Positions 3,018 through 55,835 of a DNA stretch of 64,000 nucleotides are shown here, in pieces. The notes under the pieces were generated by a model. The model searched no databases, was not told the DNA's origin, and worked only from the letters and a program-made list of their open reading frames with translations. The stretch is from IMG/VR virus record IMGVR_UViG_3300021399_000106, positions 1 through 64,000 of that record, one strand, 5' to 3'. The DNA comes from a virus. Lineage: Duplodnaviria; Caudoviricetes. Position numbers and translations under genes: made by a program. How positions within the stretch are numbered: the first letter of the stretch is position 1; each line of letters starts with the position of its first letter.

Positions 3018-3512
3018 ATGGAAAAGACAATTTATGAAAGATATGCAAGTCAAATAAATAACTTACAAGCTCCAGGGATGCCAGATAACAAAGTAGCAAT
3101 ATTCGTTGGAAAAGATGTATATACAGAAAGTGGTAGATATACTCTTGGCATTAGAAAGATAAATGAAGGACCTGATTATTATATAAATAATAGTTTAATA
3201 CCTTGGGCATTCATGAATGGCATTTATTGTAAAGGAATGACTCATGGAAACTTTGTTGTAGAAAGATGTTATGATAAAGTAACTAATATACCAAATAAGA
3301 AAGAAGAAGATTATAGTTTAAATGTAGATGTTTTAAATTATGTAAATGCAGTTATGGTAGCTACTAACTTCTATAATAAAGAAATAGTTTCACATATTAC
3401 AATGGTATACTATATTGGTGAAGCAGATACATGTGGTGTAAGAGAATTTAAAGATGAAGAAGAATTTACAAAGGCAATTAAAGAAGATTTAGAATATTTA
3501 GAAGAGGAATAG
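3018..3512 (+). CDS. hypothetical protein
   Basis: ORF in operon. Confidence 0.7.
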   Translation: MEKTIYERYASQINNLQAPGMPDNKVAIFVGKDVYTESGRYTLGIRKINEGPDYYINNSLIPWAFMNGIYCKGMTHGNFVVERCYDKVTNIPNKKEEDYSLNVDVLNYVNAVMVATNFYNKEIVSHITMVYYIGEADTCGVREFKDEEEFTKAIKEDLEYLEEE

Positions 3513-38183: not shown

Positions 38184-38259
38184 ACCGGCGTAGCTCAACT
38201 GGTAGAGTCGCGGTCTTCAAAACCGTTGGTTGTGGGTTCGAGTCCTACCGCCGGTACCA
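38184..38259 (+). tRNA. tRNA-Trp(TCA), UGA-decoding
   Basis: 76-nt cloverleaf, anticodon TCA at 38217-38219, short variable loop (not Sec), A73, CCA. Confidence 0.92.
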
Positions 38260-39864: not shown

Positions 39865-39965
39865 AAGACAGTTACAGCAATTCTAAATGCTAGACAAATG
39901 GATAAGTCAATTTCCTGCTAAGAAATCATTTTGGGTTCAAATCCCAAGCAAATAAAACTGTCTTG
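39865..39965 (+). ncRNA. clamp element E1 with acceptor-truncated tRNA-Ser(GCT)-like module
   Basis: AAGACAGTT-ACAGCAA...AACTGTCTTG around D, anticodon and T arms. Confidence 0.7.
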
Positions 39966-40302: not shown

Positions 40303-40420
40303 AAGACTCATACTGCAATTATTCCATTCTAGGATTTTTAGCTCATTTGGTAGAGCGTCAAACTTGTAATTTGAAAGTAGCAGGTTCAAGTCCTGCAGAA
40401 TCTATGATAAACGAGTCTTG
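40303..40420 (+). ncRNA. clamp element E2 enclosing CCA-less tRNA-Thr(TGT)-like module (40332-40404)
   Basis: AAGACTC-ATACTGCAA...AAAC-GAGTCTTG. Confidence 0.7.
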
Positions 40421-43725: not shown

Positions 43726-43738
43726 TTTGAAAGGAATA

Positions 43739-44284
43739 ATGTTTATGAAAGATTTAGTAAAGGCTAGTAAGTATATTGCACTACTATTAAGGCATAAACC
43801 GGAAGAAGGAGATTTAAATCTCGACAAAGAAGGTTATTGTCCAACTGTTGATTTAATAAGAGCCTTAAAAAGAAAATTTAATTGGTTTACATTAAATGAT
43901 TTGTATGATATTGTAAATTCAGACGAAAAAGGTAGATATTCATTTAATGATAATAAAACCAAAATTAGGGCAAATCAAGGTCATTCAACAAATCAAGTAA
44001 ATATAACATTTAAAGAAGTAACACCTCCTGATATTTTATATCATGGAACAGCAACTAGATTTTTAAATGATATTTATAGAGAAGGTTTAAAACCGATGTC
44101 TAGACAATATGTTCATTTAAGTAAAGATATTGAAACTGCAACGAAAGTTGGTAGTAGACACGGAAATCTATATATTTTAGAAATTGATTGTAAGAAAATG
44201 GTTGAAGATGGATATAAATTTTATATTTCAGAAAACAATGTTTACTTAACAAAATTAGTTCCTAGAAAATATTTTAAAAATTAA
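43739..44284 (+). CDS. kptA: RNA 2'-phosphotransferase (Tpt1/KptA)
   Basis: LLRH, KGRY, IRANQGHS, LYHGT, GLKPMSRQYVHLS, NNVYLT. Confidence 0.92.
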   Translation: MFMKDLVKASKYIALLLRHKPEEGDLNLDKEGYCPTVDLIRALKRKFNWFTLNDLYDIVNSDEKGRYSFNDNKTKIRANQGHSTNQVNITFKEVTPPDILYHGTATRFLNDIYREGLKPMSRQYVHLSKDIETATKVGSRHGNLYILEIDCKKMVEDGYKFYISENNVYLTKLVPRKYFKN

Positions 44285-44347
44285 TTAAAAAATATAATAT
44301 TTTGGTAAAAGATATTGTATATATAATATGTAAAATAAAAATTTAAG

Positions 44348-44410
44348 AGACACAGACAGCAAACAATTAATGCAATCAACTTTTAATTGATCAGGCAAAA
44401 ACGTGTCTAG
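44348..44410 (+). ncRNA. clamp element E3 in 5' UTR of DUF2828 gene, carrying a Lys(TTT) anticodon stem-loop
   Basis: AGACAC-AGACAGCAA..ATCAA-CTTTTAA-TTGAT..AAAC-GTGTCTAG directly before RBS. Confidence 0.7.
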
Positions 44411-44425
44411 AAAGGAAGATTAATT

Positions 44426-46057
44426 ATGGATTTTTATGGAACAATGCAAAAGGTACAAAATAATGTATCAGTAACTGAAAATGGTATGGAAGGATACAAG
44501 ACAACTTTCCACCCATTACTAGATATGAATTTCAAGGTAACTTCATATCGTAAGCTTACAGATAGAGATATCTGTAATGATATTGACCAAATAATTTCTC
44601 AAGCAGAGGATGCTCAATATCTATTAAAATTCTTATTTATGGTAAGAGATGTTAGAGATGGTTTAGGAGAAAGAAGATTATTTAGAGTTGCATTAAAGCA
44701 TCTATTAAATACTGCTAATTTCGATAATAAGACTGAAATAATTTCAGACTTAATTAAAACTCAAATTTCTAATTTTGGTAGATTTGATGACTTATTTATT
44801 TTCGTAGGTACCCCTTATGAAAATATCTTAATTAAAACAATTAAGAATCAATTAAAGTCAGACTATGAGAATATGTTAGCTAATAAGAGCATTTCATTAT
44901 TAGCTAAGTGGATGCCATCTGAAAATGCTTCTTCAAAGGAAACTAAGAAGTTAGCAACAGCAATTAGAAAGGCATTAAATGCAGATTCTAAGACTTATAG
45001 AAAAACTTTATCAGCATTAAGAGCATATTTAAAGGTAACTGAAACTTATACTTCAGCTAATGAATGGGATAAGATTGATTATAATCAAGTTCCTTCTAAG
45101 GCAAACTTAAAGTATAAGGATGCATTCTTAAAGCATGATGAGGAAAGACGTAGAGATTACTTAGCTGCATTAAGAGTTGGTGTTGATAAGGAAGGTAATA
45201 AGGTTAAGATTAATTCTTCAGTTAACTTCCCACATGAAATTGTTGCTAAGTATACTAAGAAAAGCTACTGGAGCTTACAATTATCTGAATATGATGAAGC
45301 ATTAGAACAATTATGGAAGAATTTAAAGCAAAAAGATGGTTTAAATAACACAATCGTTGTTAGAGATGGTTCTGGTTCAATGACTTCAACAATTGGTAAT
45401 GGCGATACAACTGCATTAGATGTTTCAACAGCATTAGCAATTTATTGTTCAGAACATTTAAATTCAGGATTTAAGGATAAATTCTTAACATTCTCAAGTA
45501 GAGCTAAGTTAATTGATTTAAGTGCTGAAACTAATTTACATAACAAATTAAATAAGGTATTTAAAGAGGATGATTGCTCAAATACAAACATTGAAGATGT
45601 ATTCGATGTAATTTTAAATACAGCTGTTAATGGTAATGTTGCACCTGAGGATATGCCAGCACAAGTATTAATTATTTCAGATATGGAATTTGATGGTGCT
45701 TATGGTGGAAATAGATTCAATGGTACAAGCAACGTATTCAAGAAAGCAGCTACTAAGTATGCCAATGCAGGTTACAAGTTACCTAAATTAGTATTCTGGA
45801 ATGTATGCTCTAGAACAAATACTATCCCAGTAACACAAAATGAAAATGGTGTAGTATTAGTATCAGGATTCTCAGTTAATACCTTAAATATGGTATTAAA
45901 TGGAAAGACTTCACCTTGGTTATCATTAGTAGATGAATTAACTACAGAAAAGTATAATTCAATTCCATTATTAGCTAATGTAGTGAAGGCTAATGTAAAG
46001 GTAAATACTACTAAGAGAACCTCTAAGTCAAATAAGACACCTGATTTCTTAAAGTAA
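44426..46057 (+). CDS. DUF2828-family protein (Ro60/TROVE-like helical region + vWA domain)
   Basis: RDVRDGLGERRLFR, LLAKWMPSE, IDYNQVPS, MIDAS DGSGSM, IISDMEFD, PKLVFWNV, LVSGFS. Confidence 0.8.
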   Translation: MDFYGTMQKVQNNVSVTENGMEGYKTTFHPLLDMNFKVTSYRKLTDRDICNDIDQIISQAEDAQYLLKFLFMVRDVRDGLGERRLFRVALKHLLNTANFDNKTEIISDLIKTQISNFGRFDDLFIFVGTPYENILIKTIKNQLKSDYENMLANKSISLLAKWMPSENASSKETKKLATAIRKALNADSKTYRKTLSALRAYLKVTETYTSANEWDKIDYNQVPSKANLKYKDAFLKHDEERRRDYLAALRVGVDKEGNKVKINSSVNFPHEIVAKYTKKSYWSLQLSEYDEALEQLWKNLKQKDGLNNTIVVRDGSGSMTSTIGNGDTTALDVSTALAIYCSEHLNSGFKDKFLTFSSRAKLIDLSAETNLHNKLNKVFKEDDCSNTNIEDVFDVILNTAVNGNVAPEDMPAQVLIISDMEFDGAYGGNRFNGTSNVFKKAATKYANAGYKLPKLVFWNVCSRTNTIPVTQNENGVVLVSGFSVNTLNMVLNGKTSPWLSLVDELTTEKYNSIPLLANVVKANVKVNTTKRTSKSNKTPDFLK

Positions 46058-46069
46058 AAAAATAAATAA

Positions 46070-46230
46070 AAGACACATACAGCGATATTTATATCATGCT
46101 TGAGGAGCCGCCGATGGAGGTATGAAATCCTCCCTTCCCGACCAAGAGCTATTAAGTTTAATTATTTAATAGTTGTTGCTCGGGAAGTAGCTTAATATTC
46201 ATAGAGCAGCGATTGATAAAACGTGTCTTG
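46070..46230 (+). ncRNA. clamp element E4 with circularly permuted tRNA-Pro-like module
   Basis: order T-arm, CTTCCCG-ACCA, linker hairpin, CGGGAAG, D-arm; AAGACAC/GTGTCTT clamp. Confidence 0.75.
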
Positions 46231-46255
46231 TTGACTTAAAAATAAATAACGGTAA

Positions 46256-46396
46256 AAGACATTTACTGCAATTCTAACGATTATCACATGTCAAGTGAGT
46301 GACGGTGGTTCGATTCCATCCTCCCCTGCCATTTATTATAATATATAGGGGAGTAGTTCAGTGGTAGAATGCTAAAAAATCAACCAAAATGTCTTG
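46256..46396 (+). ncRNA. clamp element E5 with circularly permuted tRNA-Asp(GTC)-like module
   Basis: order anticodon arm, T-arm, CTCCCCT-GCCA, linker, AGGGGAG, D-arm; AAGACATTT/AAATGTCTT clamp. Confidence 0.8.
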
Positions 46397-46440
46397 ATTA
46401 CCTTTAAAATATAAATTTAATATAACATATATAAATAGAT

Positions 46441-46573
46441 TAGACACATACAGCAACTTTTAATCTTTTAGATTACTATAGGTTCAAATCCTATCTCAGC
46501 AACATTGCTAAGTGGCGAAAATGGTATACGCAAACTACTTAAAATAGTTATAATGAAAAAGAAACGTGTCTAG
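46441..46573 (+). ncRNA. clamp element E6 with circularly permuted tRNA-Leu(TAA)-like module
   Basis: order T-arm, loop-closed acceptor CTCAGCA/TGCTAAG, D-arm, anticodon arm; TAGACAC/GTGTCTA clamp. Confidence 0.78.
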
Positions 46574-46585
46574 AAATTAAAATAG

Positions 46586-46618
46586 ATTGGTATTTTACTA
46601 GTAATACCAATTTTTTTA
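46586..46618 (+). terminator. intrinsic terminator after clamp-RNA cluster
   Basis: ATTGGTATT..AATACCAAT+T-run. Confidence 0.65.
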
Positions 46619-46647
46619 TTGTATAATTTAATAGAAGAGGTGATATT

Positions 46648-46875
46648 ATGTTATTTTTAGAAACAAGTTCAGAATCTATGACATTATTTACAGCTTTAGT
46701 AATTGTGTTAGTAATAGCATTAGGAATAGTTGTATTATTAATTACATTAAAAACTAATCGATTATTTCCTTTTCATAAAATGCATAAAGAAGATGAAGAT
46801 AATTGTTATGATATGAATCTAAGAAAATCAAGTTCAGTAAAAAAGGATGAAAGAGGAAATAAATGGAAACATTAG
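46648..46875 (+). CDS. small membrane protein
   Basis: single TM helix, RBS GAGGTG. Confidence 0.6.
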   Translation: MLFLETSSESMTLFTALVIVLVIALGIVVLLITLKTNRLFPFHKMHKEDEDNCYDMNLRKSSSVKKDERGNKWKH

Positions 46876-48197
46876 CTAAGTTTAAAGAATTTGTTGATGA
46901 AATTCAACAAAATAATTCAAGAAATTATAAATTAGAAGTTTTAAAGAAATGATCCGATAATCCAATAATTCGTGTATATTTAGATTTTATTTATAATCCT
47001 TATAAGATTACTGGTATTTCAGAAAAGAAGTTATATAAGGAAATTTGAATGGAATCTGAAGAGATTACAAGTATGTATCAGCTTATGGATTATTTATTAA
47101 CTCATAATACCGGTAGAGATGAAGATATTTGTAAGGTTCAGCAATTCAAAGATTTATTAGATGTTGATTATTATGAATTATTTGATGCTATAATTACAAA
47201 ATCATTAACATTAGGTGTTGATGTATTAAGTATTAATAAATGTATGGGAAACTTCATTCCGCAATTTTCAGTCCAACTTGCCAATAAATATTTTGATAAA
47301 CCTGAAATTGTAGAAGGTAAATCATTTGCATTAACTAGAAAAATTGATGGATCCAGAATTATTGCTATTAAAGAAAATGGTGAAGTTACCTTCTATACTA
47401 GACAGGGACAATTATATGAGGGATTGGTTGATTTAGAAAAAGAAATGTTAGAAACTATGCCTGATAATATTTGTTTAGATGGTGAATTAACTATATTAGA
47501 TGCTAATGGTTTAAGTAGTAAAGACCAATATAAAGCGTGTATGAAAATTTCTAGAAAAGATGGAATTAAACATGGTTTAAAAATGTTAGTATTTGATTGT
47601 ATGAATGCGTCAGAATTTAAAAATCAATTCTGTAATAGACCATATAAGAGTAGAAGACAAATGCTAGTTCAAATTTTTAGAAATAATTTTGTTATGGATG
47701 GGGTTAACTATGATTCTGATTTAGCAAATCTAAACCATACTTATTTTGAAATGTTACCTATTTTATATGAAGGTGAAGATACACAACAAATAATGCCTAT
47801 TCTAAATAAAATGGTTGATAATGGCGAAGAAGGTATTATGATTAATATTTTAGACGCACCTTATGAGTTCCGTAGGACTCCGAATTTGTTGAAAGTCAAA
47901 AAAATGCAAGATTTAGATTTAGAGGTAATTGGTTATGAAGAAGGCTCTGGAAACTTTGCAGGAATGTTAGGTGCTTTATTAGTTAGATATAAACAAGGAA
48001 ATACTGTTAAAGTAGGTTCAGGATTGAATAAAGAATTAAGACAAGAAATTTGGAAAGATCCTGATTCATATATCGGTAAAATTATTTCAGTTCAATATTT
48101 TGAAGAAACAACAAATCAAAATGGTGGATTGAGTTTGAGATTTCCAGTCTTTTTAGAGTTTAGAAATCCAGCAGATAAAAACGTAGCAGATTTTTAG
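46863..48197 (+). CDS. ATP-dependent DNA ligase (TGA=Trp)
   Basis: KIDG, LDGEL, EEGIM, LLKVKK, KVGSG, SLRFPVF; N-terminus extends through TGA 46950 and 47046. Confidence 0.9.
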
Positions 48198-50417: not shown

Positions 50418-50487
50418 TTTTAACTAAATTAATTGTATAATATATATGAGGATAAAAAATATCCTTATTCCTATTATAAATAATGGT

Positions 50488-50578
50488 TAGTTACACACAG
50501 CAATTTAATAATACAAATACATGAACAACATTTATATCATTGTTTGGATACGAAAGTAATTAGTAGGTTCGTAACTAG
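50488..50578 (+). ncRNA. clamp element E7 (non-tRNA cargo)
   Basis: TAGTTAC-ACACAGCAA...C-GTAACTAG. Confidence 0.55.
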
Positions 50579-50710
50579 AAAAAAGTAATTTACTAATGAG
50601 GAATAGTATCGCGGCGCATATAAGTCACCTTGATGACAAATATTATATGTAGCTGTAATTATAGTTAACGCTATAACAATTCAAAGGAGTTGAAATATCC
50701 TTTAATAAAA

Positions 50711-50835
50711 AGTCGCATACAGCAAAATAAAAAATCTTTTAAAAAGAAGACAAATAATACAATCAAAAAAATTATTTTGATAGTTATGGCGACTGTGAAT
50801 GCCTATATATAAAAGACAATAGCGAAAGCGACTAG
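50711..50835 (+). ncRNA. clamp element E8 (non-tRNA cargo)
   Basis: AGTCGC-ATACAGCAA with GCGACT partners at 50789 and 50828. Confidence 0.55.
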
Positions 50836-52062: not shown

Positions 52063-53193
52063 ATGGAATTAGCGTTATTAAAATTTATAAAAGAACATGA
52101 AAATTGGGAAGAATTATTAACTAGAGACCCATATAACCTAAAAATAAATAGAGATGGTAAATATATTATATTTAAATATAATCAATTATGTTCTGATTTT
52201 AATTTACCAGAAGTTCAAGAAGCCCGAGGTATAATTTTTAGAGAATCAGATTGGAAGTGTGTTTGTCACGCCTTCAATAAGTTTGGAAATTATGGTGAAT
52301 CATATTGCCCTGAAATAGATTGGTCAACTGCATCTGTTCAAGAAAAAGTTGATGGTTCATTAATGAAAGTTTGGTATGATGAATATTGGCATATATCAAC
52401 TAATGGTACTATAGATGCTTTTAAAGCACCATTAGAATGTGCTAATAAAGAAATAACTTCTTATGGAGAACTATTCTTATATTGTTTAAAAGAAAATAAA
52501 CCTTCATTTCCATTTCAAGATTTTATTTCATTTTTAGATAAAGAATATTGTTTTATGTTTGAAATGGTATCACCTTATAATAGGGTTGTTATTGAGTACC
52601 TTGAATCTAAGTTATATTATTTAGGATGTAGAAATATGAGCACTCATCAAGAGTATGGTTTTGCAGATTATTTTCATATTCCATTTGTTAATGGTTTGGG
52701 TAATATATTAAATATGCCAAAACTATATCCATTACATACCTTAAAAGAAGTTCAAGAAGCAGCAAATGCCTTACCTTGGAATGAAGAAGGTTATGTAGTA
52801 TGTGATGCTAATTTCAATAGAGTTAAGATTAAATCTCCAGAATATGTTTTAGCGCATCACGGAAGAACTAATGGTAATATTTCTATTTCAAGATTATTAG
52901 AAATAATTTTAAATAATGAGATAGATGAATTCTTAATTTATGCAGATGAATATAAAGATAAAATAAATAATTTAATTGCTGAAATGGAATTATTTAAAAC
53001 TCAAGTTAAATTAGAAATTATAAATCTAGCTCCAGCAAATTATACTTCAAGAAAAGAATATGCAGAAGTAGTTAAGAGATACCCAGCATATATGCAATAT
53101 TTCTTATTTAGATATAAAACTATTAATGAAGAATTTAAGAAAATAAATATTTCTGGTTGGAAAAAGATATTAAGTGCGAGAGGCATTATTTAA
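52063..53193 (+). CDS. T4 Rnl1-like RNA ligase
   Basis: EARG, KFGN, EKVDGSL, FEMVSPYNRVV, EEGYVV, RVKIKSPEY. Confidence 0.85.
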   Translation: MELALLKFIKEHENWEELLTRDPYNLKINRDGKYIIFKYNQLCSDFNLPEVQEARGIIFRESDWKCVCHAFNKFGNYGESYCPEIDWSTASVQEKVDGSLMKVWYDEYWHISTNGTIDAFKAPLECANKEITSYGELFLYCLKENKPSFPFQDFISFLDKEYCFMFEMVSPYNRVVIEYLESKLYYLGCRNMSTHQEYGFADYFHIPFVNGLGNILNMPKLYPLHTLKEVQEAANALPWNEEGYVVCDANFNRVKIKSPEYVLAHHGRTNGNISISRLLEIILNNEIDEFLIYADEYKDKINNLIAEMELFKTQVKLEIINLAPANYTSRKEYAEVVKRYPAYMQYFLFRYKTINEEFKKINISGWKKILSARGII

Positions 53194-54809: not shown

Positions 54810-55835
54810 ATGATAAAATTTATAATGTTAATTGGTTTACCAGGAAGTGGTAAATCTACCTACGCAAACAAATTAATAGATAATAATACCGTATGGTTAT
54901 CTTCTGATAAAATAAGAGAAGAAATTTATGGAACTGAAGAGGAACAAAAAAATCCAGCATTAGTTTTCTCAATTATGTTTGATAGAACAGTTGAAAATCT
55001 AAATAATAATAAGAATGTTATTTATGATGCTACAAATATTAATAGAAAACTTAGAAAAGATTTATTAGATAGATTAAAAAGAAAAGTAAATAATGTCTAT
55101 TATGAATGTGTGCTAGTATATACAAACTTAGAAGAATGTAAGAAAAGAAATTCAAAAAGAGATAGAAAAGTTCCTGAATCTATAATTGATAAAATGGTTA
55201 AAAATTTTGAAGTTCCTGTTAAAGGAGAAGGTTGGGATAATATTGAAGTTAATTATACAACTAAACCATCAGTACCTTATGATAAAGTTATTGATATTTT
55301 TGTAAGTAAAGAGCCTCATGATAATCCTCATCATAATATGGATATTGATTTACATATGTATGCTGCTTGGGATTATTATGTAACACATTATGAATATGGT
55401 ATAGATAATTATTTAAAATATGCCATCTTATTTCATGATATAGGTAAGAAATTCTGTAAAACATATTATAATAGAAGGAATGAATTATGTGAAAAGGCAC
55501 ATTATTACCAACATGCAAATGCTGGAGCATATTTCGCTTTTGATATAGATTTTTCTAATTATAATGACCCTTATTTTGATGGAATATATCAAGATAAAGA
55601 ATTTACAGAAAATGATAAATACAATATGATAATATTAATTAACTATCATATGAGACCTCTAGAAGCTTGGAAGGATTCTAAAAAATCTGAAAATAAAGAT
55701 AAACTAATTTTAGGTGATAAATTATTTAATTATCTTGAAATATTACATGATTGTGATAAGAATTCTGAAGAGGATGAAAAGTTTGTTAAATGGTTTCTTG
55801 AAAAAATGGTTAAGGTATATAGAGGTGAAAACTAA
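54810..55835 (+). CDS. polynucleotide kinase-like (AAA_33 P-loop) fused to HD domain
   Basis: GLPGSGKST, SSDKIR, YDATN, RN..R; H..LFHDIGK..H..HM..D. Confidence 0.82.
   Translation: MIKFIMLIGLPGSGKSTYANKLIDNNTVWLSSDKIREEIYGTEEEQKNPALVFSIMFDRTVENLNNNKNVIYDATNINRKLRKDLLDRLKRKVNNVYYECVLVYTNLEECKKRNSKRDRKVPESIIDKMVKNFEVPVKGEGWDNIEVNYTTKPSVPYDKVIDIFVSKEPHDNPHHNMDIDLHMYAAWDYYVTHYEYGIDNYLKYAILFHDIGKKFCKTYYNRRNELCEKAHYYQHANAGAYFAFDIDFSNYNDPYFDGIYQDKEFTENDKYNMIILINYHMRPLEAWKDSKKSENKDKLILGDKLFNYLEILHDCDKNSEEDEKFVKWFLEKMVKVYRGEN

What the first reader, a model, noticed from the sequence alone, without database searches (positions are those of the whole stretch)
46070..46573. Three tandem circularly permuted tRNA modules with different breakpoints
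Seen: E4 reads T-arm > CTTCCCG-ACCA > linker > CGGGAAG > D-arm (typical Bacillota tRNA-Pro acceptor). E5 reads anticodon arm (GTC) > T-arm > CTCCCCT-GCCA > linker > AGGGGAG > D-arm. E6 reads T-arm > loop-closed acceptor > Leu-type D-arm > anticodon arm (TAA). Known: permuted tRNA genes occur in some algae/archaea, and YrlA has a permuted tRNA-like domain. Inference: these fold as L-shaped, non-chargeable mimics that keep an anticodon loop, or are processed/ligated (phage Rnl1, Tpt1, kinase-HD) into real tRNAs. They could derive from the 3'-half/spacer/5'-half junction of tandem tRNA duplicates.
Basis: partly seen in the sequence, partly recalled or inferred. Interest (0 to 1): 0.88.

Follow-up and report, generated by a model that had tools for sequence, protein, structure and literature searches.

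The report
Permuted tRNA mimics on Y-RNA-like handles
The three elements are real, conserved small RNAs in which a tRNA body is opened at three different places and tied shut by one shared "handle"; they lie right behind a phage gene for a Ro60-shaped protein and look like an undescribed relative of the Ro60/Y-RNA particle, probably used in the phage-host struggle over tRNAs.

Summary
Observation confirmed. E4 (46070-46230), E5 (46256-46396) and E6 (46441-46573) are rearranged tRNA bodies. Rejoined in silico, E5 scores as tRNA-Asp(GUC) and E6 as tRNA-Leu(UAA). E4 does not score, but keeps a Pro-type acceptor with ACCA, an anticodon stem formed in trans and an anticodon-type loop.

Each module is closed by a 7-bp covarying stem followed by an unpaired ACAGCAA-type motif, with a conserved 3' G. 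This handle occurs 219 times on the gene strand and 0 times on the other strand near DUF2828 genes in 117 sequences. All 10 phage records I found through the handle alone encode DUF2828. The DUF2828 gene directly upstream (44426-46057) is predicted to fold like Ro60.

The topology is that of YrlA Y RNAs, but the binding motif, the protein family and the modular cargo differ. Helices covary in relatives, while anticodon triplets are swapped between close relatives. That argues against true decoders and against debris.

Most likely these are partner RNAs of the Ro60-like protein that display tRNA mimics. Binding and function are inferred, not shown. I found no paper or Rfam family describing them. 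This scan has already noted the same handle family in 117 findings from at least 86 genomes, including other elements of this window.

The parts
43727..44284 (+). Tpt1/KptA RNA 2'-phosphotransferase gene (context)
   Evidence: Pfam PF01885, E 5.8e-48
44346..44410 (+). Handle RNA carrying only a Lys(UUU)-type anticodon arm, in the leader of the Ro60-like gene
   Evidence: Read. Handle model R1 gives 36.4 bits, E 5e-7.
44426..46057 (+). Ro60-like protein gene (DUF2828 + DUF7788, vWA domain with DxSxS MIDAS motif)
   Evidence: Pfam hits. AlphaFold model pLDDT 84.8. All of the first 12 Foldseek PDB matches listed (ranks 1-13) are Ro60/TROVE, best E 1.7e-9, TM 0.52-0.55. D314, S316 and S318 are invariant in alignment A1.
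46070..46230 (+). E4: handle plus degenerate Pro-type tRNA body opened at about position 31/32. Handle 5' strand 46070-76, motif 46077-85, anticodon-type loop inside 46098-108, T-like hairpin 46116-33, acceptor 3' strand plus ACCA 46134-44, linker hairpin 46145-80, acceptor 5' strand 46181-87, D-like hairpin 46190-207, handle 3' strand plus G 46223-30.
   Evidence: Relatives in L088, L090, L091 and L093.
46256..46396 (+). E5: handle plus Asp-type tRNA body opened at 26/27. Handle 46256-62, motif 46263-71, anticodon hairpin (GUC) 46284-98, T arm 46304-20, acceptor 3' strand plus GCCA 46321-31, linker 46332-46, acceptor 5' strand 46347-53, D arm 46356-70, handle 3' strand plus G 46389-96.
   Evidence: ARAGORN on the rejoined sequence. 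Rfam YrlA local match at 46300-46370, 21.6 bits. Covariation in alignment A4.
46441..46573 (+). E6: handle plus Leu-type tRNA body opened at 43/44. Handle 46441-47, motif 46448-56, variable-arm hairpin 46462-74, T arm 46478-94, loop-closed acceptor 46495-512, D arm 46515-31, anticodon arm (UAA) 46533-49, handle 3' strand plus G 46566-73.
   Evidence: ARAGORN calls tRNA-Leu(taa) in 411 of 572 variants. Covariation in alignment A3. The anticodon stem is fully compensated in L088 with the loop unchanged.
46587..46617 (+). AT-rich hairpin followed by a T run; likely end of the transcription unit
   Evidence: Read directly. The simple terminator scan did not call it because it has only 2 G-C pairs.
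39865..39965 (+). Further family member: handle around an unpermuted, reduced tRNA-like body with anticodon GCU
   Evidence: R1 gives 36.1 bits, E 6.3e-7.
40303..40420 (+). Further member: handle around a complete tRNA(UGU) body with no encoded CCA
   Evidence: Rfam tRNA 68.8 bits. R1 E 4.7e-4. The orthologue in L089 has UCU on the same body.
50487..50578 (+). Further member of the handle family
   Evidence: R1 26.2 bits, E 2.8e-4; read.
50709..50797 (+). Further member of the handle family
   Evidence: R1 22.8 bits, E 0.0023; read.
52063..53193 (+). T4 Rnl1-type RNA ligase gene (context)
   Evidence: Pfam PF09511, E 4.4e-14
54810..55835 (+). P-loop kinase gene, AAA_33/KTI12-like; candidate polynucleotide kinase (context)
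   Evidence: Pfam PF13671, E 3.7e-23

Best explanation
E4, E5 and E6 are three members of a family of small non-coding RNAs built like Y RNAs.

Each consists of two parts. The first is a handle: a 7-bp stem joining the two ends, an unpaired ACAGCAA-type motif just after the 5' strand, and a conserved G after the 3' strand. The second is a cargo derived from tRNA.

The handle is most likely the binding site of the Ro60-like ring protein encoded directly upstream. The cargo would then project from the ring as a tRNA look-alike. E5 and E6 keep a full elbow. All three keep an anticodon-type loop.

The three are probably transcribed with the protein gene and end at the hairpin at 46587-46617.

E4 and E5 keep a 7-bp acceptor, a discriminator base, CCA and an AU-rich linker. 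They are therefore likely cut by RNase P and trimmed back to CCA, giving two-piece RNAs, as shown for M. smegmatis YrlA.

By analogy with Y RNAs, which tether Ro60 to other factors, the cargo would recruit or bait proteins that read tRNA shape and anticodon loops. This would happen in a genome region devoted to tRNA supply and repair.

Shown here: the structures, their conservation and covariation, the handle-DUF2828 association, and the predicted Ro60-like fold of the protein.

Inferred: binding of the handle by the protein, processing, and the biological role.
For: Handle and strand bias:
- A strict scan of 117 sequences (836 kb) found 219 handle modules on the gene strand and 0 on the opposite strand. 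Shuffled sequence gave about 10 per replicate for both strands together.
- The terminal G is 94% conserved although the scan did not require it.
- The closing stem covaries. In 36 short members, 51 cells have both sides changed, against 9.8 in shuffles. Sliding the partner columns drops pairing to 27-51%.
- A covariance model built only from other phages finds five further modules in this window at E <= 0.0023, all on the + strand.

Association with the protein:
- In most of the 88 sequences scanned first, handle modules flank the DUF2828 gene on its own strand.
- I tested 10 whole phage records found through a 15-base handle pattern alone. All 10 encode PF11443.

Protein fold:
- All of the first 12 PDB matches listed (ranks 1-13) are Ro60/TROVE, including the Thermus phage Ro60.
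- The MIDAS residues are invariant.

Cargo structure:
- Rejoined E5 and E6 are called tRNA-Asp and tRNA-Leu, with no calls in any control.
- In 12 diverged members with YrlA topology, 15 of 20 consensus pairs show double changes.
- The E5 acceptor is fully compensated in L088.
- The E6 anticodon stem changes three pairs in L088 while the loop stays the same.
- Rfam YrlA aligns locally to E5 in the order T arm, acceptor, D arm.

Precedents from papers:
- Y RNAs lie next to Ro60 genes on the same strand and mimic tRNA. M. smegmatis YrlA is cut by RNase P and receives CCA (PMC4201824).
- A Thermus phage Ro60 binds Y-like RNAs encoded upstream of its gene (PMC12135203).

Genome context: 31 tRNA genes, tmRNA, TrpRS, Tpt1, an Rnl1-type ligase and a P-loop kinase.
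Against: - No experiment or prediction here shows that the protein binds the handle.
- The motif differs from the GNCGAA motif of known bacterial Y RNAs.
- The protein does not match Pfam TROVE at E <= 0.01.
- The YrlA model scores only 21.6 bits against a gathering score of 69.
- The handle model R1 recovers E4-E6 only in part, because their cargo is too long for it. Their membership therefore rests on my pattern scan and on orthologues.
- Part of the stem statistics is circular, because modules were picked for having a closing stem.
- Expression is not shown. RNA-library contigs cover only part of E4, and E6-type modules of relatives, and they may come from DNA.
- No promoter or terminator passed the simple scan.
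Confidence: 0.7

Rival explanations
1. Bait or decoy reading. This concerns function and is compatible with the best explanation. The modules are exchangeable cartridges that present copies of tRNA anticodon loops to host tRNA-cutting defence nucleases or toxins. They would soak these up, or report and channel the damage to the phage's repair enzymes through the Ro60-like ring.
For: - Anticodon-type 7-nt loops are enriched in cargo: 61 observed against 13-14 in shuffled cargo. A few loop types dominate: Lys UUU in 13 distinct modules, Ser UGA in 6, Asn GUU in 5, Ser GCU in 5 and Leu UAA in 4.
- Many members carry nothing but an anticodon arm.
- Triplets are swapped between close relatives on an otherwise conserved module: E5 GUC vs GCA; E4 class GAG, CAG and UGG; the 40303 type UGU vs UCU; the 39865 type GCU vs UCC; L012 vs L014.
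- The locus sits among Rnl1, a kinase and Tpt1. T4 Rnl1 with Pnkp is the classic answer to the anticodon nuclease PrrC, which cuts tRNA-Lys (my own knowledge; the general point is in PMC7824862).
Against: - No nuclease, host or cleavage is known for this phage.
- About half of the modules show no anticodon-type hairpin under my criteria.
- Loop enrichment could simply reflect descent from tRNA.
- Triplet changes could be drift in a loop that is under no selection.
- I found no paper describing such decoys.
Confidence: 0.3
2. True permuted tRNA genes. The ends held by the handle would be cut and joined by the phage ligase with Tpt1, the linker removed by RNase P and 3' trimming, and working tRNA-Asp, tRNA-Leu and perhaps tRNA-Pro would result, as for permuted tRNA genes of red algae.
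For: - Rejoined E5 and E6 score as tRNAs.
- CCA and the discriminator base are kept in E4 and E5.
- An RNA ligase, a kinase and Tpt1 are encoded nearby.
Against: - Orthologues swap the anticodon without changing the acceptor or discriminator, for example GUC vs GCA with G73 in both.
- The E6 acceptor is closed by a 4-5-nt loop, has a mismatch and has no CCA.
- The E6 orthologue in L089 has no anticodon arm at all.
- E4 has no canonical T or D loop and does not rescore.
- Anticodon-arm-only members cannot yield tRNAs.
- The phage already has standard genes for the same anticodons.
- The handle is a plain 7-bp stem with a one-sided conserved motif. It does not look like a bulge-helix-bulge splice site (by inspection only).
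Confidence: 0.07
3. A processing or stability signal that does not depend on the Ro60-like protein. The stem plus motif would mark sites for a host or phage RNase, or protect the 3' UTR and tRNA-operon transcripts. The link to DUF2828 would then be mere co-inheritance.
For: - Some handles enclose complete tRNA bodies inside the tRNA array (40303-40420).
- One handle abuts the ribosome-binding site of the DUF2828 gene.
- E4-E6 lie in what looks like the gene's 3' UTR.
Against: - All 10 records found through the handle alone carry the protein gene.
- The handle's architecture matches the Ro60-binding end of Y RNAs.
- An invariant unpaired motif next to a freely covarying stem is what a sequence-specific protein site looks like.
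Confidence: 0.1
4. Neutral debris from rearrangement of the tRNA array.
For: - The modules lie next to a 31-gene tRNA array.
- The T and D loops of E4 are decayed.
Against: - The modules are conserved, with compensatory changes, in phages whose Ro60-like proteins are only 44-80% identical.
- Strand bias is absolute.
- They are not similar to the phage's own tRNA genes.
Confidence: 0.02

Closest known systems
YrlA-type bacterial and phage Y RNAs with Ro60/Rsr (Rfam RF02553; Chen et al. 2014, PMC4201824; Thermus phage phiLo Ro60 with Yrl1/2, PMC12135203)
   Same: - The small RNA is encoded beside the ring-protein gene, on the same strand.
- The two ends are joined by a stem that carries a conserved motif near the 5' end.
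- The distal domain mimics tRNA in the order T arm, acceptor-like stem, D arm.
- Some members have a 7-bp acceptor that RNase P can cut and that carries CCA.
- The locus is associated with RNA repair genes.
   Different: - The conserved motif is WACAGCAA, not GNCGAA.
- The protein belongs to Pfam DUF2828/DUF7788, not TROVE.
- The cargo is modular: an anticodon arm alone, bodies permuted at three different points, or whole unpermuted tRNAs.
- Anticodon loops are displayed and swapped between relatives.
- Genes come in arrays of 3 to 10 per phage.
- The Rfam score is far below threshold.
Circularly permuted tRNA genes of Cyanidioschyzon and other algae and archaea
   Same: The 3' part, including CCA in E4 and E5, lies upstream of the 5' part with a linker between them. 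Rejoined E5 and E6 score as tRNAs.
   Different: - No sign of a bulge-helix-bulge junction.
- The anticodon is not tied to the identity of the body.
- Some members cannot yield a tRNA.
- The elements are found in a phage, next to a Ro60-like gene.
Two-piece (permuted) tmRNA (Rfam RF04321 and relatives)
   Same: The acceptor 3' strand with CCA is encoded before the acceptor 5' strand, and the linker is expected to be removed, giving a two-piece tRNA-like molecule.
   Different: There is no tag reading frame and no pseudoknots. The Rfam match is only 14.7 bits against a gathering score of 47.
Class I RNAs of Dictyostelia (Rfam RF01414; Kjellin et al. 2021, PMC7919456)
   Same: These are RNAs of about 60 nt with a short covarying stem joining the ends, a conserved unpaired motif right after the 5' strand, and an otherwise variable interior. 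The Rfam consensus printed contains the same UUACAGCAA core and ends in UG.
   Different: - The phage modules do not reach significance with that model: 15.6 bits, E 1.8, and no significant hit in this genome.
- Class I RNAs are eukaryotic, have their own promoter element and are known to bind an RRM protein.
- Any tie to DUF2828 is untested.

Membership tests
YrlA Y RNA (RF02553) | Encoded within a few kb of a Ro60 orthologue, on the same strand | tested here: met
   E4-E6 start 13 nt after the stop codon of the Ro60-like gene, on the same strand. The protein is a structural relative, not a Pfam TROVE member.
YrlA Y RNA (RF02553) | GNCGAA(N0-1)G motif near the 5' end (the Rsr-binding module) | tested here: not met
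   The conserved motif is WACAGCAA in 172 distinct modules. The YrlA motif is given in PMC4201824.
YrlA Y RNA (RF02553) | tRNA-like domain in the order T arm, acceptor-like stem-loop, D arm | tested here: met
   Local alignment to E5. Consensus fold with covariation in 12 members.
YrlA Y RNA (RF02553) | Reaches the Rfam gathering score (69 bits) | tested here: not met
   21.6 bits, E 0.065, on E5 only.
Ro60/TROVE proteins | HEAT-repeat ring followed by a vWA domain | tested here: met
   Foldseek: the first 12 matches listed (ranks 1-13) are Ro60/TROVE over 507-591 alignment columns, with probability 1.00. This is a predicted model, not a solved structure.
Ro60/TROVE proteins | MIDAS motif in the vWA domain | tested here: met
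   D314, S316 and S318 are invariant in 38 sequences.
Ro60/TROVE proteins | Sequence match to Pfam TROVE or to solved Ro60 chains | tested here: not met
   Pfam gives only DUF2828 and DUF7788. A profile search of PDB sequences finds no Ro60.
Ro60/TROVE proteins | Binds Y RNA through a stem near the RNA ends | not testable with these tools
   The complex predictor offered here takes proteins and small ligands only.
Circularly permuted tRNA genes | The rejoined sequence scores as a tRNA | tested here: inconclusive
   Met for E5 and E6. Not met for E4, with 1 of 1012 variants called.
Circularly permuted tRNA genes | The product is a working decoder, with anticodon and identity elements kept together | tested here: not met
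   The anticodon is swapped on an unchanged body in orthologues.
Circularly permuted tRNA genes | Circular or rejoined RNA intermediate | not testable with these tools
   Only contigs of RNA libraries were available. They showed no joints in E4-E6.
Dictyostelid Class I RNA (RF01414) | Reaches the Rfam gathering score (41.5 bits) | tested here: not met
   The best phage module scores 15.6 bits, E 1.8. The best hit in this genome has E 1.77 and is not at a module.
Dictyostelid Class I RNA (RF01414) | Short terminal stem with a conserved unpaired motif next to its 5' strand | tested here: met
   The architecture is described in PMC7919456. The shared core is visible in the Rfam consensus line.

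The most novel reading that the evidence does not exclude
The handle-plus-cargo RNAs are a cartridge system. A Ro60-like ring holds interchangeable copies of tRNA anticodon loops or whole tRNA bodies as bait for host anticodon nucleases or other tRNA-reading defence proteins, and the displayed anticodon is swapped as hosts change. E4 and E5 would in addition be opened by RNase P into two-piece, CCA-ended molecules. The same handle core in the unexplained Class I RNAs of social amoebae would mean that this kind of particle also exists in eukaryotes.
Probability: 0.25. Interest if true: 0.9.

Novelty: new variant of a known kind. Interest (0 to 1): 0.78.

Why it matters
Why Y RNAs of bacteria mimic tRNA is still an open question. 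This family makes the question sharper and testable.

- The tRNA-like part is clearly a swappable cargo. It can be reduced to a bare anticodon arm, or opened at any of several points, while a fixed handle stays with one protein family.
- That points to tRNA-reading partners, and to the anticodon loop itself, as what matters.
- The protein family is large: more than 7,900 database proteins and more than 500 IMG/VR contigs.
- It occurs in cultured Bacillus phages, so binding, processing and defence-related tests are within reach.
- It would also assign a role to a widespread domain of unknown function.
- It may give a lead on the Class I RNAs of Dictyostelium.

Tried and rejected
- **Closer relatives:** I could not fetch the closest relatives, whose proteins are 80-89% identical (P0002-P0011). 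I used one metagenome scan instead.
- **Rfam:** at gathering thresholds the window yields only tRNAs and tmRNA. The weak miRNA and snoRNA matches on the E4 linker hairpin are chance.
- **Single-sequence folding:** it supports E4 (z -3.98) but is not significant for E5 (z -1.71) or E6 (z -1.55). The evidence is comparative.
- **Handle model R1:** it does not span E4-E6 because their cargo is too long.
- **Promoter and terminator scan:** nothing above the shuffle level.
- **RNA libraries:** only contigs were available. One run from the likely source sample has an exact contig over 45915-46140. Two other studies hold short contigs (160 and 198 nt) of E6-type relatives. No ends, strand or processing can be read from these, and DNA carry-over is possible. 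E5 had no cover.
- **Own tRNAs as recent parents:** rejected, since the best match is 57 of 82 positions.
- **Reverse-complement control for anticodon-type loops:** uninformative, because the loop pattern is symmetric.
- **First literature search:** wasted on the ordinary word 'trove'. Searches for DUF2828, YrlA with phage, Ro60 with phage, permuted tRNA with phage, and anticodon-nuclease decoys found no description of this family.
- **Protein atlas:** added nothing on eukaryotic members.
Full report
**What is there**

The window is an AT-rich phage record of 166.5 kb. It reads TGA as a sense codon in several genes, so ORFs had to be read with code 4. It carries a tmRNA gene and an array of 31 tRNA genes at 37.4-43.7 kb.

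The stretch 46070-46573 begins 13 nt after the stop codon of a 543-aa gene (44426-46057). It holds three modules on the same strand. Exact coordinates are and in the parts list.

**Do they look like rearranged tRNAs beyond chance?**

I cut each module at its acceptor, removed the outer stem, and rejoined the halves over a grid of junction choices.

| Module | ARAGORN result |
|---|---|
| E5 | tRNA-Asp(gtc) in most of 91 variants; 83 of 91 get some call |
| E6 | tRNA-Leu(taa) in 411 of 572 variants |
| E4 | called in 1 of 1012 variants at default stringency |

Controls gave nothing: 300 shuffles of each best variant, the reversed sequences, and the region as encoded all produced 0 calls.

E4 fails because its T-like and D-like loops lack the canonical residues. 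It still keeps:
- a perfect 7-bp acceptor of the Pro type with ACCA;
- an anticodon stem formed between the stretch after the D arm and the stretch before the T arm;
- a 7-nt loop with U33 and a purine at 37, carrying the triplet GAG.

In tRNA numbering the chain is opened at about 31/32 in E4, 26/27 in E5 and 43/44 in E6. The claim of 'different breakpoints' is therefore correct.

**The feature this finding left out**

Each module is closed by a 7-bp stem between its two ends. The 5' strand is followed at once by an unpaired motif of the ACAGCAA type, and the 3' strand by a G.

The same handle closes five other elements of the window, at 39865, 40303, 44346, 50487 and 50709. A covariance model of the handle, built only from other phages, finds those five at E between 5e-7 and 0.0023, all on the + strand. 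It matches E4-E6 only in part, because their cargo is too long for the model.

**The neighbour gene**

The 543-aa protein matches Pfam DUF2828 and DUF7788. It has no sequence match to solved structures.

An AlphaFold model built on 38 relatives has mean pLDDT 84.8. Its 12 best listed Foldseek matches in the PDB (ranks 1-13) are all Ro60/TROVE proteins, including the Ro60 of Thermus phage phiLo. The matches cover 507-591 alignment columns, with best E 1.7e-9 and TM 0.52-0.55. The vWA MIDAS residues are invariant.

So the protein is Ro60-shaped, although Pfam does not file it under TROVE.

**Relatives**

I fetched 116 loci around homologues of the protein, from viral and metagenome contigs.

- A strict handle scan over these loci plus the window (836 kb) found 219 modules on the gene strand and none on the other strand. 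Shuffles gave about 10 per replicate for both strands together.
- The stem covaries at every variable position, including G-U pairs but no A-C pairs.
- The terminal G is 94% conserved although the scan did not require it.
- In the other direction, I searched viral contigs for a 15-base handle pattern. Every one of the 10 whole records I then tested encodes DUF2828.
- The cultured Bacillus phage vB_BanS_Skywalker has three such handles, behind a consensus promoter. They lie in the unannotated gap between its 22-tRNA array and its DUF2828 gene.

**Are the tRNA-like parts under selection?**

Yes.
- Orthologues of E4, E5 and E6 occur in phages whose Ro60-like proteins are 70-80% identical (L088, L089/L001, L090, L091, L093).
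- The E5 acceptor differs at three pairs in L088, all compensated, and the discriminator G and CCA are kept.
- The E6 T stem and acceptor show compensated changes.
- The E6 anticodon stem differs at three of five pairs in L088, while the loop is unchanged.
- In 12 diverged members with the order T arm, acceptor, D arm, 15 of 20 consensus pairs show double changes.
- The E4 class keeps its trans anticodon stem, with a G-C to C-G exchange at the outer pair.

The modules are not recent copies of the phage's own tRNA genes.

**What the cargo looks like across the family**

Of 172 distinct modules:
- 41 contain a T arm;
- 58 contain an anticodon-type hairpin;
- 43 of those 58 have the hairpin and no T arm.

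Anticodon-type loops are about four times commoner than in shuffled cargo. They are dominated by the loops of tRNA-Lys(UUU), Ser(UGA), Asn(GUU), Ser(GCU) and Leu(UAA).

Close relatives often carry the same module with a different triplet:
- E5: GUC here and in L088, GCA in L089.
- E4 class: GAG here, CAG in L091, UGG in L090 and L093.
- The handle-enclosed whole tRNA at 40303: UGU here, UCU in L089.
- The 39865 type: GCU here, UCC in L091 and L094.

In each case the acceptor and discriminator stay the same. This is not expected of true decoders. It fits a display function, although drift cannot be excluded.

**CCA and processing**

NCCA follows the acceptor 3' strand in all E4- and E5-type modules of this lineage, with AU-rich linkers of 7 to 36 nt. 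It also survives inside the short acceptor loops of two distant members (L018 1369, L053 2794).

It also matches the one characterised precedent: M. smegmatis YrlA has a 7-bp acceptor, is cut by RNase P and receives CCA in vivo (PMC4201824). Processing of E4 and E5 into two-piece RNAs is therefore a reasonable inference, but it is untested. I would not call them non-chargeable.

**Context and mechanism**

The locus is flanked by Tpt1, an ATP-dependent DNA ligase, an Rnl1-type RNA ligase, a P-loop kinase, TrpRS, the tRNA array and tmRNA.

Published work places Ro60 with a tRNA-like partner RNA on RNA-repair platforms (PMC7824862). It also shows a phage Ro60 binding Y-like RNAs encoded next to its gene (PMC12135203).

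The best-supported reading is that E4-E6 are partner RNAs of the Ro60-like protein. The handle would be the protein site. The tRNA mimic would be the effector end that recruits or baits tRNA-reading factors. The bait reading is attractive but unproven.

**Comparison with known families**

The topology and genomic setting are those of YrlA. The binding motif, the Pfam family of the protein, the modular cargo and the Rfam score all fail membership.

They are described as roughly 60-nt RNAs with a short terminal stem and a conserved 11-nt motif next to the 5' strand (PMC7919456). The Rfam consensus shows the same core and a 3' UG. The model does not reach significance on phage modules or on this genome. 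This stays a resemblance, not a membership.

**Novelty**

None of my literature searches and no Rfam family describes the handle family. This scan has already reported it repeatedly: 117 findings in at least 86 genomes, including other elements of this window. The present finding adds the three permuted members and their break points. It does not add a new family.

**Limits**

- Expression, ends, processing and protein binding are not shown.
- The RNA-library data were contigs only and say little.

Noticed in passing
window 40303-40420: A complete tRNA body (Rfam tRNA 68.8 bits, anticodon UGU, no encoded CCA) sits inside a handle. Its orthologue in L089 5403-5520 differs in the anticodon (UCU) on the same body.
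   Followed up: partly
window 39865-39965: A handle-enclosed reduced tRNA-like RNA that ARAGORN calls tRNA-Ser(gct). Rfam's tRNA model does not pass it at the gathering score. Orthologues in L091 and L094 show UCC instead.
   Followed up: partly
L117 (Bacillus phage vB_BanS_Skywalker, OK499994) 3038-3488: Three unannotated handle RNAs lie behind a TTGACA-17-TATAAT promoter, between the 22-tRNA array and the DUF2828 gene gp50. This makes a cultured phage available for testing the family.
   Followed up: partly
L062 4571-4629; Rfam RF01414: The consensus of the Dictyostelium Class I RNA family shares the stem plus UUACAGCAA core and the 3' UG with the phage handle. The scores are not significant (15.6 bits).
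   Followed up: partly
window 46619-46627 and 44315-44327; L001, L088, L091, L093 downstream of their arrays: A TTGTATAAT-type extended -10 motif recurs just after the RNA arrays and before the Ro60-like gene's leader. It is probably the phage's promoter type. The simple sigma-70 scan did not single it out.
   Followed up: no
window 38184-38259 and ORFs such as 46863-48197: A tRNA with anticodon UCA, together with in-frame TGA codons in several genes, indicates that TGA is read as a sense codon.
   Followed up: no
own genome G000:C1:144336-144395 (-): A weak extra hit of the handle model (20.9 bits, E 0.019), far from the cluster and on the other strand.
   Followed up: no
L012 vs L014, 4608-4673: Nearly identical phages differ by two adjacent bases in the displayed loop of one anticodon-arm module. 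The Lys UUU loop becomes a GUU triplet with C at position 33.
   Followed up: no
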